In this document: positions 1 to 51,757 of the stretch, one piece after another
Layout of the letters: each line of letters begins with the position of its first letter
Position numbering within the stretch: the stretch's first letter is position 1
Origin: Candidatus Omnitrophota bacterium
GTDB lineage: Bacteria > Omnitrophota > JAUWXU01
Assembly: GCA_034717435.1 (NCBI GenBank)
Contig: JAYELI010000057.1
Coordinates: 1 to 57,794, forward strand
DNA length: 57,794 nt
Direction of reading: 5' to 3'
Translations under genes and position numbers: made by a program
The notes under the pieces: model-generated
Databases searched by the model: none
What the model was told of the DNA's origin: nothing
Seen by the model: the letters and a program-made list of their open reading frames with translations, nothing else

Positions 1-140
1 ATCTCAGAAAACACGGTTTTATGGGAGATCCTTCGGTCGCCCTTCGGGAATACTCAGGACTTCCTTCGGTCGCCCTTCGGGAATACTCAGGACTTCCTTC
101 GGTCGCTTACGCTCCCTCAGGATGACATCTATCTTAAAAA
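1..140. repeat. Mosaic REP-like repeat block: module A (1-40), 33-nt module B twice in tandem (41-73, 74-106), module C (107-130)
   Basis: Direct reading. 66-140 is the reverse complement of 57720-57794 (75 nt, 1 mismatch). 1-40 is the perfect reverse complement of 57651-57690. Confidence 0.85.
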
Positions 141-162
141 GAACAAAAATTAAGGACTTAGG

Positions 163-220
163 GAGTGTGCAGTTTTAAACTTTAAACTGTGCACTTTTAA
201 CAGTTTAACTATTTAACAAT
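163..220. repeat. Small imperfect hairpin (gtgcag..ctgtgcac) followed by CAGTTTAA/CAATTTAA-type words, the complementary form of the TAAAYTGY family, just upstream of dapB
   Basis: Words aacagttt aactattt aacaattt read at 198-221. Same word set as the right arms at 10589-10631, 20411-20468 and 51714-51740. Confidence 0.5.
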
Positions 221-240
221 TTTTTAGAAGTGAGGTTTTT

Positions 241-954
241 ATGTTGAGGATTGCGATTAGCGGGGCGGCAGGAAAAATGGGCGGGCGGATAATCAACCTT
301 ATCGCTAAAGATAGCTCTCTTAAATTGACGGCTACCTTAGAGCAAAACGGGCATAGCGCCATAGGCAGGGATGTTTGCGGAATTGAGATAAGTGATAATC
401 CCGGTAATATAAAAGACGCGGATTGTTTAATAGAGTTTGCAACACCCCGGGCCTCTATTGAGCATCTGGAGGCGGTTTTAAAATATAAAAAGCCGATGGT
501 TATTGGAACGACCGGTTTAAGCCCGGAAGAAAACCTTAAAATAAGAAAGGCTTCAAAGGTTATCCCGATAGTTTTTTCGCCAAACATGTCTATTGGAGTG
601 AACATTTTTTTTAAGCTTGTTAAACTTGCGGCGCAAAGCCTTCCCAAAGACTATTTTGCCAGTATAATCGAGGCACATCACGTACATAAAAAGGATGCGC
701 CTTCAGGAACAGCAAAGCGCATAGCCGGGATAATTAAGGCAGAAGGCGGGGAAATAAAAAATATAGAGTCCATTCGCGAAGGAGAAATTATCGGTGACCA
801 TCGGATCAGTTTTGAAGGGCCCTTTGACAAAATCGAACTTTTTCATTCAGCCAAAACGCGTGATATCTTTGCCCAGGGCGCGTTAAAAGCAGCGAAATGG
901 GTTATAGATAAACAGCCGGGCATTTATAATATGCAGGATGTATTGAAAAAATGA
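241..954 (+). CDS. dapB: 4-hydroxy-tetrahydrodipicolinate reductase
   Basis: N-terminal Rossmann motif ISGAAGKMGG and DapB signature EAHHVHKKDAPSGTA. 4-nt overlap with the next gene. Confidence 0.9.
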   Translation: MLRIAISGAAGKMGGRIINLIAKDSSLKLTATLEQNGHSAIGRDVCGIEISDNPGNIKDADCLIEFATPRASIEHLEAVLKYKKPMVIGTTGLSPEENLKIRKASKVIPIVFSPNMSIGVNIFFKLVKLAAQSLPKDYFASIIEAHHVHKKDAPSGTAKRIAGIIKAEGGEIKNIESIREGEIIGDHRISFEGPFDKIELFHSAKTRDIFAQGALKAAKWVIDKQPGIYNMQDVLKK

Positions 955-2123
955 ATATCGAGATTTCAGACAGATTAAAACAATTACCTCCCTATCTTTT
1001 TGTTGAACTTGACAGATTAAAACAGGAGGCCTTAAACAAGGGCAGGGATATAATCGATCTGGGAATAGGTGATCCTGACCGGGCAACCCCGGAGCATATT
1101 ATTAAAGAGTTACAGCGCTCTGCCGGCGACTCGGCTAATCACCACTATGCCCTGGATTGGGGTATGAGCCGGCTGCGTGAGGCAATAGCCGGCTGGTATA
1201 ACAGGAGGTTTGACGTAAGATTAGATCCAAATAAGGAAATCCTGCCGTTGATCGGTTCAAAGGAAGGTATTTCTCATATACCTTTAGGATTTATTAATCC
1301 CGGAGATGTAGTTTTGGTGCCAACCCCCGGTTATCCTCCTTATACAGCCAGCGCCATATTTGCCGGAGCAAGGCCTGTTTTTTTACCTTTATTGGAACGG
1401 AATAATTTTTTGCCTGATCTGGAAAATATAGACAGAGATGTCCTTAATAAAGCAAAGATGATGTTTTTAAATTATCCCAACAATCCTACTTCTGCCACAG
1501 CTACTAAAGAATTCTTTGAGAAAGTGGTTGATTTTGCCGATAAAAACGGGATTATCGTCTGTCATGATGCCGCTTATAGCGAGATATATTTTGACGGCAA
1601 TAAACCAATGAGTTTTTTAGAGGTTCGGGGAGCTAAAGAAGTAGGGGTGGAATTCCATTCGCTTTCCAAGACCTATAATATGACCGGTTGGCGCATAGGA
1701 TTTGTAAGCGGCAATCAGCAGATTATCAAGGGCTTAAGAACAGTAAAATCCAATATTGATTCGGGTATTTTCCAGGCAATTCAGCTTGCCGGGATAGAGT
1801 CGCTTAACGGTCCGCAGGATTCGGTTGAGCAGATGAGAGAGATCTATCAGGAAAGAAGGGACGTTTTGGTTAACGGCCTGAATTCTATAGGCTGGAATGT
1901 TTCCAAGCCGCAAGCTACTTTTTATGTCTGGGCGCATGCCCTGGATGGTTATAGTTCGTCCGAATTATCCAAGATCTTTTTAGAAAAACTAGGGATAGTT
2001 ACTACCCCGGGAGTGGGTTTTGGAGAAAGCGGGGAGGGCTATATCAGGATGGCCCTGACTGTTTGCAAAGAGAGAATAAAAGAGGCGGTAGAGAGAATTG
2101 CTGAGTTTAAAAAGTACTGTTAA
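951..2123 (+). CDS. dapL: Class I PLP aminotransferase, probable LL-diaminopimelate aminotransferase
   Basis: LPPYLFVELD N-terminal motif, PLP-lysine motif SLSKTYNMTGWRIGF, translationally coupled to dapB. Confidence 0.7.
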   Translation: MNIEISDRLKQLPPYLFVELDRLKQEALNKGRDIIDLGIGDPDRATPEHIIKELQRSAGDSANHHYALDWGMSRLREAIAGWYNRRFDVRLDPNKEILPLIGSKEGISHIPLGFINPGDVVLVPTPGYPPYTASAIFAGARPVFLPLLERNNFLPDLENIDRDVLNKAKMMFLNYPNNPTSATATKEFFEKVVDFADKNGIIVCHDAAYSEIYFDGNKPMSFLEVRGAKEVGVEFHSLSKTYNMTGWRIGFVSGNQQIIKGLRTVKSNIDSGIFQAIQLAGIESLNGPQDSVEQMREIYQERRDVLVNGLNSIGWNVSKPQATFYVWAHALDGYSSSELSKIFLEKLGIVTTPGVGFGESGEGYIRMALTVCKERIKEAVERIAEFKKYC

Positions 2124-2200
2124 ATGGTTAAATTGCTAAACTGCTAAACTGTTAAACTGTTAAACTGTTAAACTGTTAAACTGATAAATTGCTAAATGGC
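2121..2200. repeat. Tandem array of ten 8-nt words TAAAYKGN (80 nt, perfect phase)
   Basis: taaatggt taaattgc taaactgc taaactgt x4 taaactga taaattgc taaatggc. It contains the dapL stop (2121-2123) and the folK ATG (2196-2198). Confidence 0.9.
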
Positions 2201-2672
2201 TAGAATTTACATCGGCATAGGTTCAAATTTAGCAGATCGCCGGGTCAATATTGAAAAGGCCCTGAATCTTTTAAGGGAAGTAAAAAACTTAGAGATTAAG
2301 AAGATTTCCTCATTACATGAAACCGAACCCGTAGGCGGGCCTCCTGAACAGGGAAATTTCTTAAATGCTGTTTTAGGGGCTGAAACCTCTATCTTACCTT
2401 TAGAATTGTTAGCCAAATTAAAAAGCATTGAAAAAAGGTTAGGCAGAGGCAAGGGTGTTCCTGACGGTCCGCGGCCAATAGACTTAGATATTCTTTTTTA
2501 TGATGATGTTGTAATTAAGGGAAAAGAATTAGAAATACCTCATCCTAGATTACACGAAAGATTTTTTGCTTTAAAACCGCTTGTCGAAATTGCCCCGGAC
2601 TTGGTTCATCCTATATTAAATAAACAAGCCAGGCAATTACTGGCAGAGATTTGTGAAAGAAAACCTTTTTAG
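2196..2672 (+). CDS. folK: 2-amino-4-hydroxy-6-hydroxymethyldihydropteridine pyrophosphokinase (HPPK)
   Basis: IGSNL N-terminus, IDLDILFYDD, PHPRLHERFFALKPL. Confidence 0.9.
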   Translation: MARIYIGIGSNLADRRVNIEKALNLLREVKNLEIKKISSLHETEPVGGPPEQGNFLNAVLGAETSILPLELLAKLKSIEKRLGRGKGVPDGPRPIDLDILFYDDVVIKGKELEIPHPRLHERFFALKPLVEIAPDLVHPILNKQARQLLAEICERKPF

Positions 2673-2826
2673 TTTGTCGAAGCTCCTTTGTCTTTGTCGA
2701 TGCTGGTATTGAAGCTGGAGGCTCGAGGCTGGAAGCTGGGTAATTTAAGGCTGAACACGAGTTTCCACTTTCCAAGACAAGCATCGATACGAGCATCCAC
2801 AACGTTAAACCAGCATCGTATAACTT
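2673..2826. repeat. About 150-nt intergenic hairpin element (AAGCTGG / GTCGATGC words), copy A
   Basis: Terminal complementarity cgatgctggt / accagcatcg. It aligns by eye to the reverse complement of 34350-34497. Confidence 0.7.
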
Positions 2827-2844
2827 GTTAGGTAACGGATTAAA

Positions 2845-3714
2845 ATGCAGGTAATTACCGCGATAGATAAAATGAGGTCTTATGTTGAGGAGGCCAAAAG
2901 CAGGGGTAAAAAAATAGGCCTTGTTCCCACAATGGGCTGTTTTCATCAGGGTCATTTAAGCCTGATAGAAAAAGCCGGGACTAGTACGGACACAACGATT
3001 GTCAGCATTTTTGTTAATCCTGCGCAGTTTGGGCCGGATGAAGACTATTTGGCTTATCCCCGGGATGTAGAGCAGGATAGGCTCAAGGCAGCCAGAGCAG
3101 GAGTTGATGTTATTTTTGCGCCTGGCTTAAGTGAGATGTATCCGGAGAGTTACCTTACATATGTTAATGTGGAAATGATAACCGGGGTTCTCTGCGGTAA
3201 GGCGCGGCCCGGACACTTTAAGGGTGTAGCCACAGTTTGCGCCAAGCTCTTTAATATCATAAAGCCCGATATAGCCTTTTTCGGCCAAAAGGATGCACAG
3301 CAGACGATAGTTGTCAAAAGGATGGTAAAAGACCTGAATATGGATGTTGAAATAGAGGTATTGCCCATTGTCAGGGAAAAAGACGGTTTGGCAATGAGCT
3401 CAAGAAATAAGTATTTAAATACTGTTCAGCGTAAAGACGCGTTGGTCCTTTATCAGGCTTTGACTAAGGCAAAGGATATGATCAAAAGCGGCGAGAGAAA
3501 TGCCGGTATGATCATAGGGTGCACTAAACAGATAATGGACAAAGCCGGCTTAAAAATAGATTATATATCCATAGTAAATGCCAGGCAGTTGAATTCTTTA
3601 GAAGTTATCTCCGGCGAGGTATTAATTGCTTTAGCGGTGTGGGTGGGCAGGGCGAGGTTGATAGATAACATTATAGTGAACACAGAGGTTAATACTATGG
3701 GCCATGAGCTTTGA
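2845..3714 (+). CDS. panC: Pantoate--beta-alanine ligase
   Basis: PTMGCFHQGHLSLI (HIGH-like) and MSSRNKYL motifs. Confidence 0.92.
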   Translation: MQVITAIDKMRSYVEEAKSRGKKIGLVPTMGCFHQGHLSLIEKAGTSTDTTIVSIFVNPAQFGPDEDYLAYPRDVEQDRLKAARAGVDVIFAPGLSEMYPESYLTYVNVEMITGVLCGKARPGHFKGVATVCAKLFNIIKPDIAFFGQKDAQQTIVVKRMVKDLNMDVEIEVLPIVREKDGLAMSSRNKYLNTVQRKDALVLYQALTKAKDMIKSGERNAGMIIGCTKQIMDKAGLKIDYISIVNARQLNSLEVISGEVLIALAVWVGRARLIDNIIVNTEVNTMGHEL

Positions 3715-3772
3715 GTTTTAGGCTAAAAGCTCATGGCTCATAGCTCAAAGCTCAAAGCCTAAGTAGTAAACA
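3701..3772. repeat. Hairpin and word array (AGCTCAWR) overlapping the panC 3' end
   Basis: Perfect 12-bp stem gccatgagcttt (3701-3712) / aaagctcatggc (3726-3737). This is followed by tcatagctcaaagctcaaagcctaa; ttaggct (3717-3723) pairs with agcctaa (3766-3772). Confidence 0.7.
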
Positions 3773-3797
3773 AAAGCTGTAGATGGAGGAAAGTGAA

Positions 3798-4154
3798 ATG
3801 ATGCGTTTAATGCATAAATCCAAGATCCATCGGGCCACTGTGACCCAGACCGACTTGAATTATGAGGGCAGTATTACTATAGATAGTCTTCTTATGAAGG
3901 AAGCGGATATTTTGGCTAATGAAAAGGTTCATGTGCTTAACCTTGATAATGGTTCAAGGTGTGAAACTTATTGCATAGAAGGGGAAGCGAATTCGGGTGT
4001 TATTTGTATTAACGGTGCGGCTGCTCACCATTCAAAGACAGGGGATAAAGTAATAATCATTGCTTATGGTTTAATGGACACAAAAGAGGCTGTTTCAATT
4101 AAACCAAAGATTGTCTATGTGGATGAAAAAAATAAGATAAAAAGGATAAAATAA
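3798..4154 (+). CDS. panD: Aspartate 1-decarboxylase
   Basis: KIHRATVT, self-cleavage context [17 protein letters not shown] ggagga lies upstream of ATG 3798; the ORF opens at 3783. Confidence 0.9.
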
Positions 4155-4155
4155 A

Positions 4156-5097
4156 ATGGTGCGCACTCAACAAGATGAAACAAAATACAGGGAAGAATTA
4201 AAGGAAAGAATAGCTGAATTAAAAAAGGACAAAGATGCGGCTATTATCGTGCACAATTATCAGCGGCCTGAAATTCAGGATATCGCTGATATAAAAGGTG
4301 ATTCTTTAGCCTTAAGCAGGGCAGCTACCAGGATCGGCAATGATGTGATAATTTTTTGCGGAGTCAGGTTTATGGCTGAGAGCGCGTCTATCTTAAATCC
4401 CGGTAAGAAGATAATTTTGCCGGTAATTGAAGCAGGATGCCCTCTGGCTGATATGGTTAATCTTGATCAGATCAAGGCCAAAAGACAACAGTTTCCCGAT
4501 GCAGCCGTAGTATGTTATGTTAATTCTTTAGCCGAGATAAAGGCGGAGAGCGATATATGCTGCACCTCCGGTAACGCGGTAAATATTGTCAAATCGTTGA
4601 ATGAATATCGTAAAATAATTTTTATCCCTGATAAGAACCTTGGACTATATGTTGCTTCGCAGGTTCCCGAAAAGGAAATTATCACTTTAGAAGGCTTTTG
4701 TCCGTCGCATGTCAGGTTATCTAAAGCTGATGTGTTAAAAGTAAAAGCCTCTCATCCCGGTGCTGAATTTCTTGTCCATCCTGAATGTTATCCGGAGGTA
4801 GTTGAGTTAGCTGATGGAGTTTGCAGCACAAAGCAGATGTTCGATTACATCGAGGTTTCTAAATGTAAGGAATTCATAATCGGGACCGAAACCGGCCTGC
4901 TTTATGGTTTGGAAAAGAAATTTCCCGGCAGAAAATTTTATTCTGCTTCGGTAAATTTACTATGCGCTGATATGAAACTGACTACTCTTGGCTGGGTGGC
5001 CCATGCCCTGGAATTTATGGAGCATGAAATAAAAGTTCCGGAGAATATCAGGGTCAAGGCCAAGAGGACGCTGGATAGAATGCTGGAGGTGAAGTAG
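4156..5097 (+). CDS. nadA: Quinolinate synthase
   Basis: 313 aa with VHNYQ, CCTSGNA and HPEC motifs typical of NadA. Confidence 0.9.
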   Translation: MVRTQQDETKYREELKERIAELKKDKDAAIIVHNYQRPEIQDIADIKGDSLALSRAATRIGNDVIIFCGVRFMAESASILNPGKKIILPVIEAGCPLADMVNLDQIKAKRQQFPDAAVVCYVNSLAEIKAESDICCTSGNAVNIVKSLNEYRKIIFIPDKNLGLYVASQVPEKEIITLEGFCPSHVRLSKADVLKVKASHPGAEFLVHPECYPEVVELADGVCSTKQMFDYIEVSKCKEFIIGTETGLLYGLEKKFPGRKFYSASVNLLCADMKLTTLGWVAHALEFMEHEIKVPENIRVKAKRTLDRMLEVK

Positions 5098-5106
5098 CCT
5101 ATAAAA

Positions 5107-5233
5107 AGTGTCAGAGAGTCAAAGTGTCAGAGAGTCAGAAAGAGTCAGAAAGAATCAGAGTGTCAAAGAGTCAAAGTAAAAACTTTGACACTAGCGAACG
5201 AAGTGAGCGATGACACTTTGACTCTTTGACACT
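5107..5233. repeat. AGWGTCAR word-array hairpin element, copy 1
   Basis: Eight or more words (agtgtcag agagtcaa ...). Perfect 19-bp stem 5159-5177 / 5215-5233. The loop contains ctagcgaacgaagtgagcgatgac. Confidence 0.85.
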
Positions 5234-5247
5234 ATTTAAGAGGTGTT

Positions 5248-6060
5248 ATGAATAAGATAAGGGTAGGAATAATCGGCTGCGGGGTAATCGGCTCGGCTCT
5301 GGCTAAGGCAATAGAAAAAAATTTTTTCGGTTTAGCTGAACTGACAGCAGTAAATGATTTAGATAAAGCTAAAACAATAAAATTAGTCAGTTCTTTAACG
5401 GGTAATCCCGGCGTTTTATCTATCGAAGAATTAATAAGCGCCAGTGATCTGGTAATTGAGGCTGCTTCTAAAGATATTTCCGCAGATACCGCACACAAAG
5501 CTCTTTCAAAGGGAAAAAACATAATGGTAATGAGTGTGGGGGGGTTGGTTGGCCGTGAAGATGTATTGCGGCTTGCCGATCAAAAATCTTGCCGTCTTTA
5601 TATTCCTTCCGGTGCCTTATGCGGCTTAGACGGGGTTAAAGCGGCATCGATGGGGGGAGTAAACTCTGTTACTTTAACTACCCGTAAACCACCGTTGGGA
5701 TTGGAAGGTGCGCCCTATGTGGTAAAAAGTAAGATTGACCTTAATGCAATTAAACAAGAAACCGTGCTTTTTGAAGGTACGGTCTTGGAAGCTGTGCAAG
5801 GTTTCCCCAAGAATATAAATGTGGCTGCTGCTTTAAGCCTTGCCGGCATTGGTCCGGTTAAAACAAAGGTAAAGATCGTTACCTCGCCTGAATATAAAAG
5901 TAATTCCCATGAAGTTAAGGTGCAGGGTGAGTTTGGAATTCTTATAACCAAGACCGAAAACCTGCCCTCTCCTCAAAACCCAAAAACCAGTCTCTTAGCT
6001 GTCCTTTCAGCCATAGCAGCCTTAAAACAGATATTGGAACATACAAAGATAGGCACTTAA
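5248..6060 (+). CDS. nadX: L-aspartate dehydrogenase
   Basis: RVGIIGCGVIGS Rossmann motif, SGALCGLDGVKAA, NPKTS. Adjacent to nadA. Confidence 0.85.
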   Translation: MNKIRVGIIGCGVIGSALAKAIEKNFFGLAELTAVNDLDKAKTIKLVSSLTGNPGVLSIEELISASDLVIEAASKDISADTAHKALSKGKNIMVMSVGGLVGREDVLRLADQKSCRLYIPSGALCGLDGVKAASMGGVNSVTLTTRKPPLGLEGAPYVVKSKIDLNAIKQETVLFEGTVLEAVQGFPKNINVAAALSLAGIGPVKTKVKIVTSPEYKSNSHEVKVQGEFGILITKTENLPSPQNPKTSLLAVLSAIAALKQILEHTKIGT

Positions 6061-10536: not shown

Positions 10537-10631
10537 TAAATTGCTAAACTGTTAAACTGATAAATTGCTAAATGGCTAAACTGTTATAGCAGTTTAACAA
10601 TTTAACCATTTAACAATATAACAATATAATT
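10537..10631. repeat. TAAAYTGY word-array hairpin element
   Basis: Six left-arm octamers at 10537-10584, a 3-4 nt loop, and a right arm gcagttta acaattta accattta acaatata acaatata ending at ATG 10632. Confidence 0.85.
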
Positions 10632-15477: not shown

Positions 15478-17568
15478 GTGTCTGAAAAAGTTATAACAAA
15501 AATCGGTAGCCAGGATTTGATTATTGAAACAGGAAAAATAGCTAACTCAGCTGATGGTTCAGTTACAGTTCAACACGGAGGAACTATTGTGCTGGTAACA
15601 GTAGTTGCCTCTAAAAAGATGAAAGAAGGCATGAGCTTTCTTCCGTTGACCGTTGAGTATAGAGAAAAAACTTACGCTGCCGGTAAGATCCCCGGCGGTT
15701 TTTTTAAAAGGGAAGGAAGGCCTTCGGAAAAGGAAATACTAACTTCACGGTTGATCGACCGGCCGCTGAGGGCGCTTTTTCCCAAGGGTTTTGCCAATGA
15801 GGTCCAGGTTATCGCAACGGTTTTATCTGCCGATGAACAAAATGACCCTGATTGCCTGGCGGTAATTGGAGCTTCAGCAGCGCTGGCTGTGTCTGATGTG
15901 CCTTTTCCTGAATTAGTCGGAGCAATAAGGGTAGGCAAGGCAGGGGATAAATTCGTTATTAACCCCGCTTATTCAGAACTGGAAGAAAACGGCTTGGATT
16001 TGATAGTAGCGGGGACCAGGCAGGGCGTCATCATGCTGGAGGGCGGTGCTGACCAATGTGATGAAAAAACGATCTTAGAAGCTATAGAGTTTGGATATGA
16101 AAACCTCCTGGGGATAATCGATCTGCAGGAAAAATTGGCTAAATCCAGCGGAAAGCCTAAAAGAGAAATTGAGCTTAAGAAAACAGACCAGGAGTTTTAT
16201 CAACAAATAAAAGATTTAAGCCAGGAAAAATTGGACGAAATAGTTAAAATAGACTTGAAGGAACAACGGGAAGAAGAGTTTAACCTTCTTTGCAATCAGC
16301 TGATAGAGAAGCTGGTTACTGAAAATTCTGAAAAGACAGAAGGTGATATTAAAGATATCTTAGAGCAGATTGAATGTGAAAAAGTAAGAGAGATGATCGT
16401 GGAGCAGGGCAAAAGAATAGGAGGCCGGGACTATAAAACCGTCAGGCCGGTTGATTGTGAAACAGGCGTATTGCCCCGGGCTCATGGTTCAGCCATATTT
16501 ACCCGGGGCCAAACCCAGAGCTTAGCCACTGCTACTCTGGGAAGCAGAATGGATGAGCAGATGATAGATGCCTTAAAAGGCGTGTCTTATAAACGGTTTA
16601 TGCTGCATTACAACTTTCCTCCGTTTAGCGTCGGAGAAGTCCGTCCGATGCGCGGGACAGGCAGAAGAGAGATTGGGCACGGTGCATTAGCCGAAAGGGC
16701 AATGAAGCCGGTTATGCCTTCGGAAGATGATTTTCCTTATACCGTCAGGCTGGTCTCTGATATTTTGGAATCAAATGGCTCTTCAAGTATGGCTACTGTC
16801 TGTGGCGCTTCTTTAGCGATGATGGATGCCGGCATACCGGTGAAGGCCCAGGTTGCCGGGATAGCTATGGGTTTGGTCAAGCAAAATGGAAAGGAAGCAG
16901 TCCTCACTGATATTATCGGTTCAGAAGACCATTTCGGAGATATGGACTTTAAGGTCGCTGGAACTGCCAAAGGAATTACCGCATTGCAGTTAGATATTAA
17001 AATGAACGTGATTTCAAATGAAGTTCTTGCCCGGGCTTTGGAAGAGGCTAAGAGCGCCCGGATATTTATTCTTGATAAAATGGATCAAGTCCTGGATAAG
17101 GCCAGAAGCTCTCTTTCGCCTTACGCACCCAGGATTATCACGCTTAAAGTTAACCCGAGCAAAGTGGGGGATGTAATCGGCCCCGGCGGAAAGATTATCA
17201 GGAAGATTCAGGATGATACAGGCGCTAAGATCGAGATTGAAGACGGCGGAAAGATAAATATCGTTTCCGTAAATGAGGAAGCGAGCAATAAAGCGGTGGA
17301 GATAATTAAGAAGTTGGTCGAAGAAGCAGAAATAGGAAAGATATATTTAGCGAAGGTGGGTAAAATAACTAATTTCGGCGCCTTCTGTGAAATTTTACCC
17401 GGTCAATCCGGATTGATTCATGTCTCTGAGATGGACAAAGGATATGTTAAAAAGGTCGGGGATGTTTTAAAAGAAGGCGAGGAAGTATTGGTTAAAGTGA
17501 TTGGTATAGATGAACAAGGCAGGATTAATCTTTCCCGCAAGCAAGCTATGGGAGAAGAAAATAAATAA
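15478..17568 (+). CDS. pnp: Polyribonucleotide nucleotidyltransferase (PNPase)
   Basis: GTG start. Two RNase PH domains, a KH domain (GPGGKIIRKI) and an S1 domain. Classical rpsO-pnp order. Confidence 0.95.
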   Translation: MSEKVITKIGSQDLIIETGKIANSADGSVTVQHGGTIVLVTVVASKKMKEGMSFLPLTVEYREKTYAAGKIPGGFFKREGRPSEKEILTSRLIDRPLRALFPKGFANEVQVIATVLSADEQNDPDCLAVIGASAALAVSDVPFPELVGAIRVGKAGDKFVINPAYSELEENGLDLIVAGTRQGVIMLEGGADQCDEKTILEAIEFGYENLLGIIDLQEKLAKSSGKPKREIELKKTDQEFYQQIKDLSQEKLDEIVKIDLKEQREEEFNLLCNQLIEKLVTENSEKTEGDIKDILEQIECEKVREMIVEQGKRIGGRDYKTVRPVDCETGVLPRAHGSAIFTRGQTQSLATATLGSRMDEQMIDALKGVSYKRFMLHYNFPPFSVGEVRPMRGTGRREIGHGALAERAMKPVMPSEDDFPYTVRLVSDILESNGSSSMATVCGASLAMMDAGIPVKAQVAGIAMGLVKQNGKEAVLTDIIGSEDHFGDMDFKVAGTAKGITALQLDIKMNVISNEVLARALEEAKSARIFILDKMDQVLDKARSSLSPYAPRIITLKVNPSKVGDVIGPGGKIIRKIQDDTGAKIEIEDGGKINIVSVNEEASNKAVEIIKKLVEEAEIGKIYLAKVGKITNFGAFCEILPGQSGLIHVSEMDKGYVKKVGDVLKEGEEVLVKVIGIDEQGRINLSRKQAMGEENK

Positions 17569-17678
17569 ATTGCTAAACTGTTAAATGGCTAAATTGTTAT
17601 AAAGATCCAAAAAATATTTTATTACAGTATTTTGTTAAAAATTGATTTTAAGAGGGATAAACAAATTTAACAATTTAA
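17566..17678. repeat. TAAAYTGY word-array element with conserved internal core
   Basis: Words taaattgc taaactgt taaatggc taaattgt start on the pnp stop codon. The core tataaagatccaaaaaatattttattacag is shared with 20338-20367. The right arm acaaattt aacaattt aaATG runs into the dut start. Confidence 0.8.
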
Positions 17679-18137: not shown

Positions 18138-20308
18138 TGACTAAGGAGAGAGTAAACGAAGCAATAGGTTTACTACTGATAGCTGTTTCTGTTTTAATTA
18201 GCCTGAGCCTTATTTCCTATAATCCCGGCGATACAAACCTGATTACCTCTTCAACAAATCTCCAGATAAATAATTTCGTAGGAGTAGCCGGAGCCTATTT
18301 GGCTCAAGCCATCTTTTTTTTAATAGGAAAAGGCGCTTATTTAATCCCTTTTTTCATCGCTATCTGGGGGATATTCAAATTAAGGGGTAAAAAAACAGAG
18401 CACTTCTACCTTAAGCTGATCGGCGCTATAATTCTCCTTGTGTCTATTTCGTCAATATTTAGTCTGCAGGGAGTAGATGTTCAACGGATAGCCAATGGCG
18501 GAATTGTTGGTTTTCGGTTTTCAGAATTGAGCATTATTTACTTTGGGATGGTGGGTTCTTATGTAATATTAGCTACGTTATTTATTTTGTCTGTTTTATT
18601 GACTACAGAGCTGCTATTTTTTTCATATTTAATCCGTTTGTTCAAAGGAATATTGGCCAGGGTTATCGAACTGAGAAAAAAATCGATTAAGTACTCTGTA
18701 GCGGTCAGGCCCAAGCCAGTTAGGCCTATTCCGGTCAAGCCCGCATTGGTTAAGCCCGTTCCGGTTAAACCTCGTGTAGAAATTAGGCCTGCGGTAAAAC
18801 CAACTCCTCCCAAACATGGTTTTGAAAAAGCCGGACCAATTCCAGTTGGAGGCGCCGGTCTTAACCAAACAAACGGGTATAAACTGCCTTCTTTGGATCT
18901 CTTGCAATCTCCGCCTCCGGTAAAGGCCAGAAAGTTGATTGATAACTTGAATGCCAATGCCCGGGTTTTAGAAGAGACCTTAAAGGATTTTGGAATAGAA
19001 GTAAAGGTTACTGAAATTAACCGCGGACCAGTAATTACCAGATATGAGGTGTTACCGGCTCCGGGAGTCAAGGTAAATCGAATTATAACGTTAGGTGACG
19101 ACCTTGCTTTGGCTTTAAAGGCTGCAACAGTCCAGATAGTTGCCCCCATCCCGGGGAAGTCAGCAGTAGGGATAGAGGTCCCTAACAGCGCTATGACCCT
19201 GGTTTATTTAAAAGAAATTCTTCAGTCGTCTGAATGGCGAAATTCCTCTTTTAGATTAACCCTGTCTTTAGGAAAAGATGTTGCCGGTCATCCTATTGTT
19301 ACCGATTTGGCTAGTATGCCTCATCTTTTGATTGCCGGGGCAACCGGCAGCGGCAAGACATTGTGTATCAACAACCTGATTATCGGATTATTGTTTAAGT
19401 TTACGCCTGAAGAACTAAAATTCTTAATGATTGATCCCAAGCGGGTAGAGTTGGCTATTTTCAACAATCTTCCCCACCTGCTCTGTCCGGTGATTACAGA
19501 ACCCAATAAGGTAGTTGGAGCCTTAAATTGGGTGGTTGAAGAGATGGAATCCCGCTACAAACTTTTTGCCAGATTAGGGGTCAGGAACATAGAAGCTTAT
19601 AACGACAAATTGACAGCGGGGAAATTAAAATTAGAAGAGGAGGAGCTCAAGCGCTTACCTTATTTTATCATTGTTATTGATGAGTTGGCCGATCTTATGG
19701 TGGTTGCTCCGGATAAAATAGAAAATTCCATTACCAGATTAGCCCAGCTTTCCCGGGCAGTGGGTATTCATATCATCCTGGCTACCCAGCGGCCGTCAGT
19801 CGATGTAATTACCGGGGTGATCAAAGCTAATTTTCCTGCCCGGATATCATTCAAAGTAGCGTCCAAGGTAGATTCCCGAACAGTCTTAGATGCCAATGGC
19901 GCTGATAAGCTTTTGGGCAAAGGAGACCTTTTATTCTTAAGACCGGGCAGCTTCAAGCCTATTCGCGGCCAGGGAACCTTGATCTCTGACCAAGAAATAG
20001 AAAAAGTGATCAATTTTGTCAAATTGCAGGCCGGCCCCCGGTATAATCAAGAAATTTTGGCCCAGCAGCAAAAGAAGGACAGCCAGGGATATTTTGAAGA
20101 AGATGAGTTGTTTGAAGAAGCGGTAAAAATGGTATTAACCACAGGCCAGGCCTCTGTATCTATGCTTCAGCGCAGGATGCGCCTTGGTTACACCCGGGCG
20201 GCAAGAATGATAGATGCAATGGAGGAAAAGGGAGTGGTAGGGCCCTATAGAGGTCCAAGGCCAAGAGAGATATTGGTCGAGGACTACAAAGAAGAAGCAA
20301 CCCCTTAA
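18137..20308 (+). CDS. ftsK: DNA translocase FtsK
   Basis: TAATG overlap with the dut stop. N-terminal TM segments, Pro/Lys-rich linker, Walker A GATGSGKT, DELADLM, gamma wHTH SVSMLQRRMRLGYTRAARMID. Confidence 0.9.
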   Translation: MTKERVNEAIGLLLIAVSVLISLSLISYNPGDTNLITSSTNLQINNFVGVAGAYLAQAIFFLIGKGAYLIPFFIAIWGIFKLRGKKTEHFYLKLIGAIILLVSISSIFSLQGVDVQRIANGGIVGFRFSELSIIYFGMVGSYVILATLFILSVLLTTELLFFSYLIRLFKGILARVIELRKKSIKYSVAVRPKPVRPIPVKPALVKPVPVKPRVEIRPAVKPTPPKHGFEKAGPIPVGGAGLNQTNGYKLPSLDLLQSPPPVKARKLIDNLNANARVLEETLKDFGIEVKVTEINRGPVITRYEVLPAPGVKVNRIITLGDDLALALKAATVQIVAPIPGKSAVGIEVPNSAMTLVYLKEILQSSEWRNSSFRLTLSLGKDVAGHPIVTDLASMPHLLIAGATGSGKTLCINNLIIGLLFKFTPEELKFLMIDPKRVELAIFNNLPHLLCPVITEPNKVVGALNWVVEEMESRYKLFARLGVRNIEAYNDKLTAGKLKLEEEELKRLPYFIIVIDELADLMVVAPDKIENSITRLAQLSRAVGIHIILATQRPSVDVITGVIKANFPARISFKVASKVDSRTVLDANGADKLLGKGDLLFLRPGSFKPIRGQGTLISDQEIEKVINFVKLQAGPRYNQEILAQQQKKDSQGYFEEDELFEEAVKMVLTTGQASVSMLQRRMRLGYTRAARMIDAMEEKGVVGPYRGPRPREILVEDYKEEATP

Positions 20309-20468
20309 ACTGTTAAATGGCTAAATTGTTAAATTGTTATAAAGATCCAAAAATATTTTATTACAGATTGTTGTGAAAAAGTTATGTTTCAAAATTTAGA
20401 AGACAAATCTCCAGTTTATCAATTTAACAGTTTAGCAATTTAACCATTTAGCAATATAGCAATATATT
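20306..20468. repeat. TAAAYTGY word-array element with conserved internal core
   Basis: Left-arm words start on the ftsK stop codon. Same core as 17598-17628. The right arm has seven words ending gcaatata gcaatata ttATG. Confidence 0.8.
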
Positions 20469-24888: not shown

Positions 24889-25836
24889 ATGGCAAGACCA
24901 TACAGATTACAAACAGAAGATTGTTTTTATCATATAACCAGCAGGGGGGATAACAAGAAGAAGATTTATGTTAGTGAATATGACTATAAAAAATTTCTAG
25001 AGTATATACTGAACGCAAAGGCGAGATTTAAATTTTATATCTATGCATACGTTTTAATGCCCAACCACTATCATTTTCTAATAAAAACTCTTCATGCAAA
25101 TTTATCAAAACTAATGCATTACATAAACGGGTCATACACAACTTACTACAATGTGAAGCGTAAAAAGTCGGGACATTTATTTCAGGGCAGGTATAAGTCA
25201 ATAGTTGTGGATACAGACAGTTATTTTTCAATATTGAGCCGGTATATTCATTTGAATCCAGTATTGGCAAAGCTTGTAAAGTTTCCGGAAGAGTACAAGT
25301 GGTCGAGTTGTAATGCTTACATCAAAAAGGAAAAAGATGAAATTATAGATAAAGGAGAAATAAATAGGGTTTTAGGAATGTCGGCCAGGCAGTATCGTCA
25401 ATTCATGATGGAAGGTTTGGGAAAAAAGGAAAATCCATTTAAAGATTTGTATGGAGGATTTATTTTGGGAGGCACAAAATTTATTCAAGATAAGTTAAAT
25501 GAGTTAAGAGAGCAAGTGGAGGGTGGGGAATTTTCTCATCAGAAAGACCTTAAAAGGTATATATCCATAAAAAGCATAGATGATTTAATGGAAAGAGAAT
25601 ATGGAAAAAGAATTAAGGAAATGCGCGCCAAAAGGACCTGGACTATGAGGAAGAAGAGAATAGCAATATATTTAATGAGAAAATTTGCGGGATTGGATAA
25701 TAAGGAAATCGGTGGAGTTTTTAGGATGAATTCTTCGGCAGTAAGTAAGGCGGCAATGAGTATTGAGAAAGGCATGAATGAAAGTAGCCAGTTGAGGAAA
25801 GAAATGAAGAAACTATTTTCGATTTTCGAGGGCTGA
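24889..25836 (+). CDS. IS200/RAYT-like HUH tyrosine (Y1) transposase fused to a DnaA domain-IV-like HTH
   Basis: YHITSRG, HUH motif PNHYHFLI, GHLFQGRYKS, YIHLNPV. The C-terminal IAIYLMRKFAGLDNKEIGGVFRMNSSAVSKA resembles the DnaA C-terminal HTH. Confidence 0.8.
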   Translation: MARPYRLQTEDCFYHITSRGDNKKKIYVSEYDYKKFLEYILNAKARFKFYIYAYVLMPNHYHFLIKTLHANLSKLMHYINGSYTTYYNVKRKKSGHLFQGRYKSIVVDTDSYFSILSRYIHLNPVLAKLVKFPEEYKWSSCNAYIKKEKDEIIDKGEINRVLGMSARQYRQFMMEGLGKKENPFKDLYGGFILGGTKFIQDKLNELREQVEGGEFSHQKDLKRYISIKSIDDLMEREYGKRIKEMRAKRTWTMRKKRIAIYLMRKFAGLDNKEIGGVFRMNSSAVSKAAMSIEKGMNESSQLRKEMKKLFSIFEG

Positions 25837-33778: not shown

Positions 33779-34346
33779 AGTTAAAGTTGCCGGCAGGTTA
33801 TTGCTGGACGGCAAAGGCAAATCCAAGATTGATAGCGGTATTAAATTTTTGGATCATATGCTAGACCTGTTTACATTTCACGGTTTTTTCGATTTGGAGC
33901 TTACGGCAAGAGGAGATTTGGGGGTAGATTACCATCATACCAATGAAGATATCGGAATTGTCTTAGGCGAAGCGTTTAAAAAATCTATTGGTAAAGCGCG
34001 GGGCATAAAAAGATTTGGCGAGGCATCAGTCCCGATGGAAGAAGCATTGGCGTGGGTAGTGGTGGATGTTTGCGGAAGGGGCAGTTTTTCCTGGAACTTA
34101 CCGGCTAATACAGAGTTAAAAAAGGAAACAGGGGGATATAGCTTTGATGACGCCAGGCATTTTCTGGACTCATTTGCCAAGAAATCAGGCATTAACATAA
34201 AGATTGATATAATTGAACCAAGCCCGGATGTCCACCATTTATTAGAGGCAGCATTTAAATCTTTAGGAATAGCAATTGACCGGGCGACTCAGATAGATAA
34301 GAGAAGAAAGGGCGTCCCTTCTACTAAAGGGGTTATAGACCTATAA
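33714..34346 (+). CDS. hisB: Imidazoleglycerol-phosphate dehydratase
   Basis: RQTTEVKV, DYHHTNEDIG and DVHHLLEA metal-binding motifs. 65-nt overlap with hisD. Confidence 0.9.
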   Translation: MPKKEKTPKTPRKARIKRQTTEVKVAGRLLLDGKGKSKIDSGIKFLDHMLDLFTFHGFFDLELTARGDLGVDYHHTNEDIGIVLGEAFKKSIGKARGIKRFGEASVPMEEALAWVVVDVCGRGSFSWNLPANTELKKETGGYSFDDARHFLDSFAKKSGINIKIDIIEPSPDVHHLLEAAFKSLGIAIDRATQIDKRRKGVPSTKGVIDL

Positions 34347-34349
34347 AAA

Positions 34350-34497
34350 CTGCAGGTTGCAGGCTGGGAAGCTGGTTTAACGTTGTCGATGCTCATATGG
34401 GTGCTCGTTTTAGAAACTAGAGGCTTGGACATAGTGAATTATCCAGCTTCCAGCCTTCAGCTTCGATACCAGTATCGACAACGACAAACGAGCTTCT
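34350..34497. repeat. About 150-nt intergenic hairpin element (AAGCTGG / GTCGATGC words), copy B, inverted relative to copy A
   Basis: The reverse complement of 34445-34497 aligns with 2676-2740. The reverse complement of 34361-34415 aligns with 2780-2817. Confidence 0.7.
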
Positions 34498-34525
34498 ATA
34501 ACTTTGATTTTGAGAAAGGTATGTT

Positions 34526-37573: not shown

Positions 37574-37748
37574 TGAATTGCTAAACTGTTAAGTCCGTCG
37601 TGCGTTATGCGTATTGCGTTGTGCGCTATGCGCTGTGCGCTTTGCGTTTTGACGCTTTTAAATCCCGTTTTTCTTTAAAAAATAGTTTTTGTTTTTTTTG
37701 ACGCATTACGCACGACGCATAACGCATAACGCACAGCGCATAACGCAC
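37574..37748. repeat. Composite element: two TAAAYTGY-type words, then a GCGYTRTG octamer-array hairpin
   Basis: The left arm (37597-37655) reads gtgcgtta tgcgtatt gcgttgtg cgctatgc gctgtgcg ctttgcgt. The loop is T-rich. The right arm (37700-37748) is built of complementary words, with mismatches at the degenerate positions. Confidence 0.8.
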
Positions 37749-49814: not shown

Positions 49815-51602
49815 ATGTCTATCAAAATAGATAAAATAAGAAATTTCAGCATAATTGCCCATATAGATCACGGAAAGTCTACGTTGGCCGACAGGTTACT
49901 GCAGTTTACCGGAGCGATCAGCGACCGCGAATTCAGAAATCAGGTTCTTGATGATATGGATCTGGAGCGGGAAAGAGGGATTACGATTAAGGCCCGGGCA
50001 GTGAGGATAGCTTATAAAGGTTATTGGCTTAACCTTATTGATACGCCCGGACACGTAGATTTTACTTACGAAGTGGCTAAATCCCTGGCAGCATGCGAAG
50101 GGGCTTTGCTTTTGGTGGATGCGGCCCAGGGGGTAGAGGCCCAGACTGTTTCAACTTTGCATCTGGCCTTGGAGCACAATTTAAAAATTATCCCGATAAT
50201 CAATAAGATCGATCTGATTAATGCTGATCCGGAGAGGGTTAAGCGTCAGCTGAAAGATGTCTTGAATATTGAAACCGATCAGGTAATTCTGGCATCGGCC
50301 AAAGAGGGCATAGGGACAGAGGAGGTGCTTGATGCTGTTGTTTCGCGTATACCTGCGCCCAAAGGCAAAAAGGACAGCTCTCTTCAGGCGCTTATATTTG
50401 ATTCCAAATTTGACGTTTTTAAAGGCGTTGTTGTCTATTTACGGGTAATGAAAGGCTGTATTTGCCCTCGAATGAAGATTAAATTTATGTCTACCGGCAG
50501 TATATATGAAGTTGAAGAAGTGGGTGTTTTTACGCCTCGGCCTTGCAAGGTAGATGAATTGGCTTGTGGACAGGTGGGATATATCAGCTGTAATATAAAA
50601 GAGACGGGAGTAGTAAGCGTTGGCGATACTATTACTAATGCCCTGTTGCCCTGCAAAGAGAGACTTCCCGGTTATAAAAAACTTATTTCGTTGGTATTCA
50701 GCAGCCTTTACCCCGTAAACAGCAAGGATCATTCTTTGCTGCGCGAAGGGCTTGCCAAGTTAAAACTTAATGATGCGGGCTTGGTATATGAGCCGGAAAG
50801 TTCCGCCTCTCTCGGCCTGGGTTTCAGGTGCGGTTTTTTAGGGCTTTTGCATATGGAAATAGTCCAGGAAAGGCTGGAAAGAGAGTTCGACCTTAATTTG
50901 ATAACCACTGCTCCCAGCGTTACCTACCAGATTAAAGAAAAAGACGGCCGGGTTATTACTGTAGATGACCCCTCCAAGTTTCCGCCCAACAATAAAATAA
51001 CCCAGATGTTCGAGCCATACATCAGGGCATTTATGATTATCCCTAAGGATTCCCTGGGCGCGATAATGGAATTGTCTCACTCCCGGCGGGGGGTCTATAA
51101 GGGCACGGAATATTTGGATGTAGAAAGAGTGTTGTTGACATATGAACTTCCTCTATCGGAGATACTGGTCGATTTTTACGATAAGATAAAATCGATTACC
51201 CGGGGTTATGGCTCCCTGGATTATGAATTTATCGGCTATTTTCCCACGGCTCTGGTAAAATTAGATATTTTGATTAATGGAGAAATTTGTGAAAACCTGT
51301 CTTCAATAGTATATAAGAAAGAGGCCCGGGCAAGAGGACAAGTGTTGGCCGGCAGGCTGAAGCAGTTGATTCCCCGGCAGCTTTTCGAAGTAGTAATTCA
51401 AGCGGCAATCGGCAGCCAGGTGATTACCCGGGAGTCTGTCAGGCCTTTGGGTAAACACGTGACAGGTAAATGTTATGGAGGGGATATTACCAGAAAACGC
51501 AAGCTCTGGGAAAAGCAGAAGGCGGGGAAAAAACGCATGAAGCAGTTTGGAAAAGTCAAAATTCCCCAGGAAGCGTTTATGGCGATCTTGACTACCAAAT
51601 AA
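49815..51602 (+). CDS. lepA: Elongation factor 4
   Basis: [23 protein letters not shown] and NKIDL motifs, plus the LepA C-terminal domain. Confidence 0.95.
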
Positions 51603-51740
51603 ATGGTTAAACTGCTAAATGGCTAAATGGTTAAATTGCTAAACTGAAGATTTGTATCCTGAATTTTAAAACGCATTTTTTTACAATAAGTTACGTTAAA
51701 ATAATTTTTTAGTTCAACAATTTAACAGTTTAACAATTTA
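51600..51740. repeat. TAAAYTGY word-array element
   Basis: Six left-arm octamers start on the lepA stop codon (51600-51647). The loop is about 65 nt. The right arm is tcaacaatttaacagtttaacaattta (51714-51740). Confidence 0.8.
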
Positions 51741-51757
51741 TAAAGAGGATTGATTAA

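What the first reader, a model, noticed from the sequence alone, without database searches (positions are those of the whole stretch)
2121..2200. In-phase 10 x 8-nt tandem array that contains both the dapL stop codon and the folK start codon
The 80 nt parse exactly into ten octamers: taaatggt, taaattgc, taaactgc, taaactgt x4, taaactga, taaattgc, taaatggc. The TAA of word 1 is the dapL stop. The ATG inside word 10 (taaATGgc) is the only start that gives the usual HPPK N-terminus (MARIYIGIGSNL), and no SD precedes it.

Because 8 = 2 mod 3, three consecutive words place TAA in all three frames. The TTAA junctions place TAA on the opposite strand as well, so the array is a six-frame stop block. 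Unlike the other family members, it has no complementary arm nearby. The repeat therefore does not need the hairpin to persist here.
Basis: seen in the sequence. Interest (0 to 1): 0.6.

Follow-up and report, generated by a model that had tools for sequence, protein, structure and literature searches.

The report
Stop-to-start octamer repeat spacer
The whole 72-base spacer between two biosynthetic genes (dapL, folK) of an uncultured Omnitrophota bacterium is a recently acquired, unfolded run of ten 8-base repeats that supplies the first gene's stop codon and ends in the second gene's start codon; it is a real, fast-changing example of a poorly understood but already reported kind of bacterial intergenic repeat.

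Summary
Positions 2121-2200 are ten in-phase TAAAYKGN octamers. Word 1 is the dapL stop. Word 10 holds the only canonical folK start. No SD precedes it, and all six frames carry stops.

The array is one of five same-orientation arrays of this word family in the window. Four of them start exactly at a TAA stop. In a metagenome scan the stop was word 1 in 17 of 24 arrays where it fell inside the array (P = 2e-4).

The array is unstructured (z = -0.28), unlike the paired members at 10537 and 20306. Arrays with no complementary arm are common elsewhere (92 of 112). A complementary arm does exist 1.9 kb upstream, at 196-222.

The array is young. Outgroups have gaps of 0-22 nt (L136 reads TAA|ATG). 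The sister genomes hold different word-array hairpins plus a remnant of the complementary arm. Both array edges are ancestral coding sequence.

My best reading is a surviving, slippage-prone left arm of a family element. It now serves as an unfolded, AU-rich, SD-less spacer that is tolerated rather than clearly selected.

The closest known analogue is the TAACTGA repeats of Beggiatoaceae. Copy number could not be checked with reads.

The parts
951..2123 (+). dapL (LL-diaminopimelate aminotransferase). Its last codons TAC TGT plus the TAA stop form the left edge of the array.
   Evidence: ORF. NCBIfam NF006756 613 bits and TIGR03540 600.6 bits. 'TACTGY TAA' is shared with relative L012.
2121..2200 (+). 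Ten in-phase TAAAYKGN octamers in a single orientation. They fill the entire dapL|folK spacer. The RNA is unstructured.
   Evidence: Fold z = -0.28, and the array alone gives -5.4 kcal/mol. No Rfam, promoter or terminator hit.
2116..2120 (+). ACTGT, a partial word inside the dapL coding sequence. The 8-nt periodicity already begins here.
   Evidence: TRF starts the array at 2116. L012 has ACTGC at the same place.
2124..2147 (+). Mini-ORF ATG..TAA (MVKLLNC*). Its ATG abuts the dapL stop as TAAATG, the same configuration as the ancestral-type junction in L136.
   Evidence: L136 junction 'aaaTAAATGtcg'.
2196..2672 (+). folK (HPPK). The start ATG 2196-2198 lies inside word 10 (TAAATGGC). 'ATGGCT' is the ancestral start.
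   Evidence: TIGR01498 129 bits and PDB alignments. It is the only canonical in-frame start. ATGGCT is shared with L012 and L137.
2169..2202 (+). 34 nt (words 7-10 plus TA) identical to 10545-10578 in another array of the family.
   Evidence: The word-order permutation gives P of about 0.05.
2121..2143 (+). 23 nt (words 1-3) identical to 51624-51646 and to the reverse complement at 20428-20450.
196..222 (+). Complementary arm (TTTAACAG TTTAACTA TTTAACAA) just upstream of the dapB SD and start. It is locally unpaired and 89% complementary to 2146-2172.
10537..10629 (+). Paired family member: six TAAAYKGN words directly after a TGA stop, a 5-nt loop, and a complementary arm running up to the ATG at 10632.
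   Evidence: Fold z = -2.76.
17566..17678 (+). Family member at PNPase|dUTPase: four words starting at the TAA stop, a non-periodic core, and a short complementary arm ending at the ATG at 17679.
20306..20468 (+). Paired family member at FtsK|RodZ. It starts at the TAA stop and shares a roughly 30-nt core with the 17566 element. The arm ends at the ATG at 20469.
   Evidence: Fold z = -4.2.
51600..51744 (+). Family member at LepA|LepB. It starts at the TAA stop. The same word family sits at the orthologous junction in the distant relative L055.

Best explanation
The 80-nt array is a solo, left-arm-type member of a dispersed family of TAAAYKGN octamer arrays in an Omnitrophota genome. Arrays of this family are anchored at the stop codon of the upstream gene.

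Origin (inferred): the family entered the dapL|folK junction after the lineage split from L136-like relatives, whose stop and start abut as TAA|ATG. In this genome only the stop-side arm survived. It expanded by replication slippage of the 8-nt unit; the four identical central words fit this. Its far end was fused in phase to folK's ancestral ATGGCTA, most simply by a deletion at the 7-nt microhomology with the family word (TAA)ATGGC-TA. That deletion would have removed the loop, the return arm and any SD.

Shown: the array fills every base that is not constrained by the two coding sequences.

How it works (inferred): it is transcribed within a dapB-dapL-folK message as an unfolded, AU-rich intercistronic spacer. 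It terminates all reading frames and lets folK start without an SD. The start could come from SD-independent 30S loading on open RNA or from ribosomes that have just terminated at dapL. It is tolerated because it preserves the stop, the start and an open initiation region, not because the repeat itself is needed.
For: - Family and stop anchoring: five same-orientation arrays lie in the window. Four start exactly at a TAA stop and one directly after TGA. In metagenome contigs, 17 of the 24 stops that fall inside the array fall in word 1 (P = 2e-4), and 4 more lie directly before the array.
- No structure: z = -0.28, against -2.8 and -4.2 for paired members. No promoter or terminator site lies in the gap.
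- Recent gain: the tree is ((L139,L013,L014),(L137,(L136,(window,(L012,L135))))), with gaps of 15-19, 22, 0, 72, 200 and 296 nt. The alignment places the 72 nt exactly between TAA and ATG of L136.
- The family was at this junction in the ancestor of the trio: L012 keeps two in-phase complementary words, TTTAGCAA TTTAACGA, just upstream of folK, and L135 keeps a homologous segment.
- Ancestral edges: 'TACTGY TAA' and 'ATGGCT(A)' are shared with relatives.
- Shared blocks with other arrays: 34 nt and 23 nt are identical.
- SD-less starts are common here: 27 of 58 genes. folK in the outgroups also lacks an SD and sits 0-19 nt after dapL.
- Published analogue: the TAACTGA repeats show the same properties, namely forward orientation ending at start codons, no SD, no structure, and stops in all frames (PMC4679880).
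Against: - There are no transcript or ribosome data. No RNA run holds the locus.
- Copy number is not confirmed by reads, because Logan contigs break in the array.
- The shared 4-word block is only marginally beyond chance for a 7-word vocabulary (P of about 0.05).
- An in-situ birth from a TAAATGGC stop/start junction fits the L136 state, the symmetric word gradient (ATGG-ATTG-ACTG...ACTG-ATTG-ATGG) and the L072 example about as well.
- The absence of ATG-bearing words among the eight internal words (P = 0.058) hints at some selection on the array.
- The same word family persists at the lepA|lepB junction in a relative only 59% identical. That hints at more than neutral junk.
Confidence: 0.55

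Rival explanations
1. In-situ birth. The ancestral junction was ...ACTGT TAA ATG GCT A..., with stop abutting start as in L136. The 8-mer spanning it (TAAATGGC) was duplicated in tandem by slippage. Central copies then diverged and were homogenised, so no family element was ever inserted or deleted here.
For: - L136 has TAA|ATG with a 0-nt gap.
- The 72 nt are exactly 9 x 8 and are flanked by TAAATGGT and TAAATGGC.
- The word gradient from both edges is symmetric.
- L072 shows an independent stop-to-start array whose words change from the upstream gene's end into the downstream start context.
- TAA+ATG+G would explain why TAAATGG-like words recur in unrelated metagenomes.
Against: - The same derived words, and blocks of 23-34 nt, occur in other arrays of the window that are not at stop/start junctions.
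- The sister genomes carry a complementary-arm remnant at this same gap.
- The 17566 and 20306 elements share a non-periodic core, so elements of this family are copied between sites.
Confidence: 0.22
2. Long-range RNA pairing. The array is the 3' partner of the complementary arm at 196-222. In the dapB-dapL transcript the two would form a roughly 27-bp duplex that brackets both genes. It could be an RNase III site or a protection from exonucleases, so the hairpin is not missing but stretched over 1.9 kb.
For: - The arms are 27 nt long and 89% complementary.
- Duplex energy is -26.7 kcal/mol, and none of 300 shuffles reaches it.
- The 196-222 arm is left unpaired by its local fold.
- dut-ftsK is bracketed the same way by 17660-17678 and 20306-20337.
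Against: - The arrangement follows automatically when several elements of one family sit in a run of co-directional genes (54 of 58 genes are on the + strand).
- Translating ribosomes would keep 1.9 kb of coding RNA open.
- In the metagenome set no array has a complementary arm upstream within 300 nt (0 of 112).
- The relative L012 has a different word family upstream of dapB.
Confidence: 0.08
3. Selected cis-element. The repeated UAAAYKGN words would be a binding platform for an RNA-binding factor (S1, a cold-shock protein or another single-strand binder). Alternatively they are a scanning track that actively recruits or passes ribosomes to the SD-less folK start, and copy number tunes the DapL:FolK ratio.
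For: - Internal words avoid ATG (0 of 8, P = 0.058).
- The same word family is kept at lepA|lepB across 59% protein identity.
- The array is unstructured and ends in the start codon.
- MacGregor proposed S1, Csp or CsrA binding for TAACTGA repeats.
- 70S scanning over +73 nt was shown in vitro (PMC12548453).
Against: - The array is absent from this junction in all six relatives examined.
- Gap content differs even between the near-identical L012 and L135.
- Genes downstream of hairpin-type gaps lack an SD about as often as others, so no special dependence is seen.
- No factor has been identified.
- Most in-vivo work finds coupling weak at +70 nt.
Confidence: 0.1
4. Assembly artefact. The array length, or the absence of a loop and return arm, would come from repeat-induced collapse in a low-coverage (about 6x) metagenome assembly.
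For: - Coverage is about 5-8x.
- Logan contigs break at 2017/2087 and resume at 2169-2173.
- Many other loci share the words, with summed depth above 100 on the array.
- The perfect 39-nt run creates a loop in a k=31 graph.
Against: - Exact independent contigs cover words 7-10 running straight into folK (2169-2290).
- Gene order dapL-folK is conserved in six relatives.
- The 39-nt perfect run is short compared with ordinary read lengths and with the larger k values of common assemblers (general knowledge).
Confidence: 0.05

Closest known systems
TAACTGA intergenic direct repeats of marine Beggiatoaceae, some Cyanobacteria and Bacteroidetes (MacGregor 2015, PMC4679880)
   Same: Both are short AU-rich direct repeats in intergenic regions, in the forward orientation. 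They most often end within a nucleotide or so of a start codon, and some overlap the end of the upstream ORF. Both carry stop codons in all forward frames and have no predicted RNA structure. SD sequences are rare next to them. Copy number varies and function is unknown. One word here (TAAACTGA) is the heptamer plus one A.
   Different: The unit here is 8 nt and degenerate (TAAAYKGN), not a fixed heptamer. This family is mostly anchored at stop codons and often occurs with an inverted complementary array that forms a hairpin; the BOGUAY genome has only one indirect repeat. The host is Omnitrophota. This array spans the whole spacer from stop to start.
Mycobacterial interspersed repetitive units (MIRUs)
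   Same: Both are tandem repeats placed between genes of an operon whose ends coincide with the flanking stop and start codons. MIRUs are thought to insert at start codons with little harm to expression (PMC12548453).
   Different: MIRU units are tens of bases long (my own knowledge) and carry a small ORF that stays translationally coupled at -4 nt. Here the unit is 8 nt, is not a multiple of 3, and has stops in all frames.
Cyanobacterial STRR and the GGGNATC-type heptamer repeats of Xanthomonas and Nostoc (Rehm 2015, PMC4692102)
   Same: Both are 7-nt-class tandem repeats that are over-represented between co-directional ORFs. They lie within 50 bp of stop codons on the sense strand or upstream of ORFs, are transcribed, and vary in copy number.
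   Different: Those repeats are G-rich and form quadruplexes, with a preference for four units. This array is AU-rich, has ten units, and has no G-tracts.
REP/BIME/REPIN elements mobilised by RAYT (Y1 HUH) transposases
   Same: Both are dispersed intergenic repeat families, often hairpin-forming and placed after stop codons. A Y1_Tnp-domain protein is encoded in the window (24889-25836).
   Different: REPs are single imperfect palindromes of fixed sequence, not arrays of 8-nt words. This copy has no palindrome at all. No link between the Y1 protein and the octamer family was shown.
Ribosome termination structures (RTS; Chemla 2020, PMC7518266)
   Same: The paired members of this family put a stable RNA structure directly after the stop codon, where RTSs are reported to insulate translation.
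   Different: The array studied here is the opposite case, with no structure after the stop. The expected link between hairpins and SD use was not seen in this window.

Membership tests
TAACTGA-type intergenic direct repeats (MacGregor 2015) | Direct tandem repeats of the heptamer TAACTGA | tested here: not met
   The unit is 8 nt (TRF period 8). The words are TAAAYKGN. The exact heptamer TAACTGA is absent from the array; the nearest word, TAAACTGA, has an extra A.
TAACTGA-type intergenic direct repeats (MacGregor 2015) | Intergenic, forward orientation, ending within a few nt of a start codon, usually with no SD | tested here: met
   The array ends inside the folK start codon and no SD-like core is present. 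Compare.
TAACTGA-type intergenic direct repeats (MacGregor 2015) | No predicted RNA secondary structure; stop codons in all forward frames | tested here: met
   z = -0.28 and -5.4 kcal/mol for 80 nt. There are 3-4 stops in each forward frame.
MIRU | Repeat unit tens of bases long, carrying an ORF coupled to the flanking genes | tested here: not met
   The unit is 8 nt. The longest open stretch is 8-12 codons, with stops in all frames.
MIRU | Sits between genes of an operon, with its ends at the flanking stop and start codons | tested here: met
   Word 1 is the dapL stop and word 10 holds the folK start. No promoter or terminator site lies in the gap.
REP/REPIN (RAYT-associated) | Imperfect palindrome or hairpin | tested here: not met
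   There is no inverted repeat within the gap. The fold is no better than shuffles.
REP/REPIN (RAYT-associated) | A cognate RAYT gene flanked by, or associated with, the repeat family | tested here: inconclusive
   A Y1_Tnp protein lies at 24889-25836, but no octamer arrays flank it.
Phase-variable simple-sequence contingency locus | Copy-number change switches a reading frame or promoter spacing | tested here: not met
   The array lies wholly outside both ORFs, so copy changes cannot shift a frame. No promoter-like hexamers are in or around it.
Phase-variable simple-sequence contingency locus | Copy number polymorphic within a population | not testable with these tools
   Only Logan k=31 contigs are available for the three runs, and they break in the array.
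Window's own TAAAYKGN/TTTARCAN family | In-phase TAAAYKGN words starting at or next to the upstream gene's stop codon | tested here: met
   Blocks of 23 nt and 34 nt are identical to other members.
Window's own TAAAYKGN/TTTARCAN family | Complementary arm downstream in the same gap, ending near the next start codon | tested here: not met
   There is none in the 72-nt gap. The nearest complementary arm is 1.9 kb upstream, at 196-222.

The most novel reading that the evidence does not exclude
Short-word arrays such as this one may be a real SD-independent translation element of Omnitrophota and other phyla. An unfolded repeat track laid down from stop codon to start codon by a dedicated copying or DNA-writing process would hand terminating ribosomes, or S1/Csp-bound 30S subunits, to the next start. 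The paired (hairpin) form would insulate neighbouring genes, and the solo form would couple them. The dapL|folK array would then be the coupling state of a two-state junction module.
Probability: 0.1. Interest if true: 0.8.

Novelty: new variant of a known kind. Interest (0 to 1): 0.45.

Why it matters
Short tandem 7-9-nt repeats at gene junctions have been reported in Beggiatoaceae, cyanobacteria, Bacteroidetes and Xanthomonas, but their origin and function remain open.

This locus gives an unusually clean before-and-after comparison. One relative has the stop abutting the start. This genome has exactly nine extra octamers between them. Two near-identical sister genomes have entirely different repeat cassettes at the same site. 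That shows these junctions turn over faster than the surrounding genes. It also shows that the arrays expand until they meet the first constrained codon on each side.

If the array turned out to be needed for folK translation, it would point to an SD-independent start mechanism in a large uncultured phylum. If not, it is a good model of how slippage-prone DNA colonises compact genomes without harming operons.

It also has a practical side. Such arrays break short-read assemblies and mislead start-codon prediction in these MAGs.

Tried and rejected
- **Whole-genome census of the family:** The family could be counted only in the 58-kb window and in public contigs.
- **DapL scan of genome contigs:** it found no close relative. 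The best match was 61-65% identical, and the hits came from mixed phyla. Close relatives came instead from the protein collection.
- **Exact-protein look-up of FolK:** nothing was on record.
- **Copy-number check with reads:** only Logan contigs exist for X1-X3, and they break in the array. A joint 2086>2207 seen at 85% likeness with a 20-nt side was not reproduced, so I disregard it.
- **RNA runs:** none were found.
- **Known RNA families, promoters and terminators:** Rfam gave no hit on the array. The only match in 1-6000 was a chance miRNA hit at 3710. No promoter or terminator site lies in the gap.
- **"Hairpin gaps need an SD, solo gaps do not":** genes downstream of hairpin gaps lack an SD about as often as others. 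Not supported.
- **Rho-utilisation site (by eye, no tool run):** the words contain no YC dimers and C is about equal to G. Rejected.
- **Six-frame stop block as the selected function:** the other word families in the same genome lack stops. Rejected as the main explanation.
- **Global gene-orientation bias of TAAAYKGN arrays in metagenomes:** none was found (32 same-strand against 32 opposite upstream).
- **Word-order identity with other arrays as proof of copying:** it is only marginal (P of about 0.05).
- **Literature on Omnitrophota repeats:** nothing was found.
Full report
**1.

Positions 2121-2200 read TAAATGGT TAAATTGC TAAACTGC TAAACTGT x4 TAAACTGA TAAATTGC TAAATGGC. Tandem Repeats Finder gives a period of 8 and 10.1 copies at 2116-2196.

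The upstream ORF (951-2123) is an LL-diaminopimelate aminotransferase (NF006756, 613 bits). Its TAA stop is word 1.

The downstream ORF (2196-2672) is HPPK/FolK (TIGR01498, 129 bits). Its first residues align with residues 1-6 of full-length HPPK structures. No other ATG, GTG or TTG is in frame in the first 70 codons.

No SD-like core precedes the start. All six frames carry 2-4 stops. Markov simulations of the window never gave more than 3 in-phase words, against 10 observed.

**2. The array belongs to a family with a regular layout**

The window holds five TAAAYKGN arrays, at 2121, 10537, 17566, 20306 and 51600. It also holds complementary TTTARCAN arrays at 196, 10593, about 17660, 20415 and 51721.

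Four of the five arrays start exactly with the TAA stop of the upstream gene: dapL, PNPase, FtsK and LepA. The fifth starts directly after a TGA. The complementary arms end at or close to the next start codon.

A survey of all gaps of 45 nt or more shows word-array hairpins of several other word families in roughly 14 of 24 gaps. The dapL|folK gap is the only one made entirely of a one-orientation array.

In folding tests the solo array is no better than shuffles (z = -0.28; -5.4 kcal/mol for 80 nt). The 10537 and 20306 members form long hairpins (z = -2.8 and -4.2). The 17566 and 51600 members do not fold better than shuffles (z = 0.66 and -0.61).

**3.

A 27-nt arm at 196-222, just upstream of dapB, is 89% complementary to the array. 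The duplex energy is -26.7 kcal/mol, against -14.6 +/- 3.3 for shuffles. The arm is left unpaired in its local fold.

I treat long-range pairing as a minor rival. The arrangement follows automatically when several elements of one family sit in a run of co-directional genes (54 of 58 genes are on the + strand).

**4. Organism and relatives**

Names on the DapL homologues place the contig in Candidatus Omnitrophota. The only runs that hold it are brine metagenomes.

The gene order dapB-dapL-folK-panC is conserved wherever the contigs of the relatives reach.

A DapL+FolK tree gives ((L139,L013,L014),(L137,(L136,(window,(L012,L135))))).

| Genome(s) | dapL-folK gap |
|---|---|
| L139, L013, L014 | 15-19 nt |
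| L137 | 22 nt, with an SD |
| L136 | 0 nt (aaaTAAATGtcg) |
| window | 72 nt |
| L012 | 200 nt |
| L135 | 296 nt |

An alignment puts the 72 extra bases exactly between TAA and ATG of L136.

L012 and L135 are nearly identical in the coding flanks but hold completely different word-array hairpins. The exception is a shared segment next to folK, which in L012 contains two in-phase complementary-arm words, TTTAGCAA TTTAACGA.

From this I conclude three things:
- The junction was short and array-free ancestrally.
- The octamer family was probably present in the ancestor of the window, L012 and L135.
- Gap content turns over much faster than the genes.

Both edges of the array are ancestral coding sequence. 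TACTGY-TAA is shared with L012, and ATGGCT is shared with L012 and L137.

**5. Wider distribution**

I looked at arrays with a long ORF (150 aa or more) reading into them.

| Position of the stop | Arrays |
|---|---|
| Word 1 | 17 |
| Directly before the array | 4 |
| Word 2 | 3 |
| Word 3 | 4 |
| 4-7 nt before the array | 4 |

For stops inside the array, 17 of 24 fall in word 1, against an expected one-third (binomial P = 2e-4).

Ninety-two of 112 arrays have no complementary arm within 300 nt. When an arm exists it is always downstream (20 against 0).

L055 carries the same word family at the orthologous lepA|lepB junction, at only 59-60% protein identity. L072 is a second stop-to-start array. 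Its words change from the upstream gene's end into the downstream start context.

**6. Origin**

Two histories fit the data.

(a) A family element was acquired after the split from L136. The return arm and any SD were later lost by a deletion at the 7-nt microhomology between the family word (TAA)ATGGC-TA and folK's ATGGCTA. The central TAAACTGT words then expanded by slippage.

(b) The array was born in place, by tandem duplication of a TAAATGGC stop/start junction.

I favour (a), for three reasons. The sister genomes carry the arm remnant. Blocks of 34 nt and 23 nt are identical to other arrays, although the word-order permutation gives only P of about 0.05. And the 17566 and 20306 elements share a non-periodic core, which shows that elements are copied between sites.

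**7. Function**

No promoter, terminator or Rfam family lies in the gap, so co-transcription with dapL is likely.

SD-less starts are common in this window (27 of 58 genes). folK also lacks an SD in the outgroups, where it sits 0-19 nt after dapL.

The array keeps the initiation region open and AU-rich. It carries no ATG in its eight internal words (P = 0.058).

folK could start by SD-independent loading, or through ribosomes that have just terminated at dapL. Scanning over +73 nt has been shown in vitro, but coupling at that distance is thought to be weak in vivo (PMC12548453).

The idea that hairpin gaps insulate, and therefore need an SD, while solo gaps couple (compare RTS, PMC7518266) was not supported by SD counts in this window.

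I conclude that the array is tolerated because it preserves the stop, the start and an open leader. A specific role is possible but not shown.

**8. Comparison with known systems**

The closest published analogue is the TAACTGA direct repeats of Beggiatoaceae, cyanobacteria and Bacteroidetes. They are in the forward orientation and end next to start codons. Some overlap the end of the upstream ORF. They have stops in all frames, no predicted structure and rare SD sequences, and their function is unknown (PMC4679880).

This array differs in three ways. The unit is a degenerate octamer. The family is anchored at stop codons. The family also often occurs as inverted pairs.

MIRUs, STRR and GGGNATC heptamers, REP/RAYT elements and RTS hairpins each share some features but fail defining tests (see the membership table).

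Earlier notes of this scan report similar arrays in other Omnitrophota genomes. I used them only as pointers to the literature.

**9. Limits**

- Only Logan contigs exist for the runs, so copy number and polymorphism are untested.
- No RNA data exist.

**Verdict**

This is a real, lineage-specific, fast-evolving solo member of a stop-anchored octamer repeat family. It acts as the complete dapL|folK spacer. It is a new variant of a known but unexplained kind of repeat, and of moderate interest.

Noticed in passing
window 29-125 and 57598-57707: Both contig ends lie in REP-like repeats. There is a 33-nt unit x2.4 at 29-106. The segment at about 106-135 (cgcttacgctccctcaggatgacatcta) is close to the reverse complement of the 28-nt unit repeated at 57598-57653. 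This probably explains why the assembly stops here.
   Followed up: no
window 24889-25836: A 315-aa protein with a Y1_Tnp (IS200-like, HUH tyrosine transposase) domain, possibly a RAYT. No octamer arrays flank it.
   Followed up: partly
window 2673-2844 and L136 1464-1633: The 172-nt folK|panC hairpin element (GAAGCTG-type words) is conserved between the window and L136. L012 and L135 carry a different (GATTACAGA-type) element after folK. Some word-array hairpins therefore persist while neighbouring ones are replaced.
   Followed up: partly
L012 3550-3586 vs L135 779-815 (window equivalent 2087-2123): The last roughly 12 codons of dapL differ sharply between the otherwise near-identical L012 and L135 (AVERIKGFKEYC against AIDRIAKFKKHH). 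The variable cassette therefore seems to extend into the gene's 3' end. In run X2 the Logan contig ends at exactly the equivalent position, 2087.
   Followed up: partly
window 17598-17628 and 20338-20367: The PNPase|dUTPase and FtsK|RodZ elements share a roughly 30-nt non-periodic core (TATAAAGATCCAAAAA(A)TATTTTATTACAG) after their TAAAYKGN arms. This shows that whole composite elements are duplicated to new junctions.
   Followed up: partly
L055 904-975 (minus strand of the locus): The lepA|lepB junction of a relative only 59-60% identical carries the same TAAAYTGY words directly after the stop, and a complementary arm abutting the lepB ATG.
   Followed up: partly
L072 about 250-345 (minus strand of the locus): A second single-orientation stop-to-start array. 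Its words change from GTGGATGA (which overlaps the TGA that appears to end the upstream gene) through TAAATGGG to TAAATGAG, which abuts ATGAGAGG, the start of a 298-aa ORF.
   Followed up: partly
window 33779-34525 and 41450-41803: These long 'gaps' in my crude gene list appear, from reading the DNA by eye, to contain coding sequence: an imidazoleglycerol-phosphate dehydratase-like stretch and a YqgF/RuvX-like stretch. The ORF filter missed them, perhaps because of unusual starts or frameshifts. They are probably not true intergenic regions.
   Followed up: no
window 37574-37771: After the TGA that ends the ORF at 36797-37573 come two words of the same family (TGAATTGC TAAACTGT). A different word family (TGCGYTN) follows and forms a strong hairpin (-74.9 kcal/mol over the gap). 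Word families can therefore be nested or concatenated.
   Followed up: no
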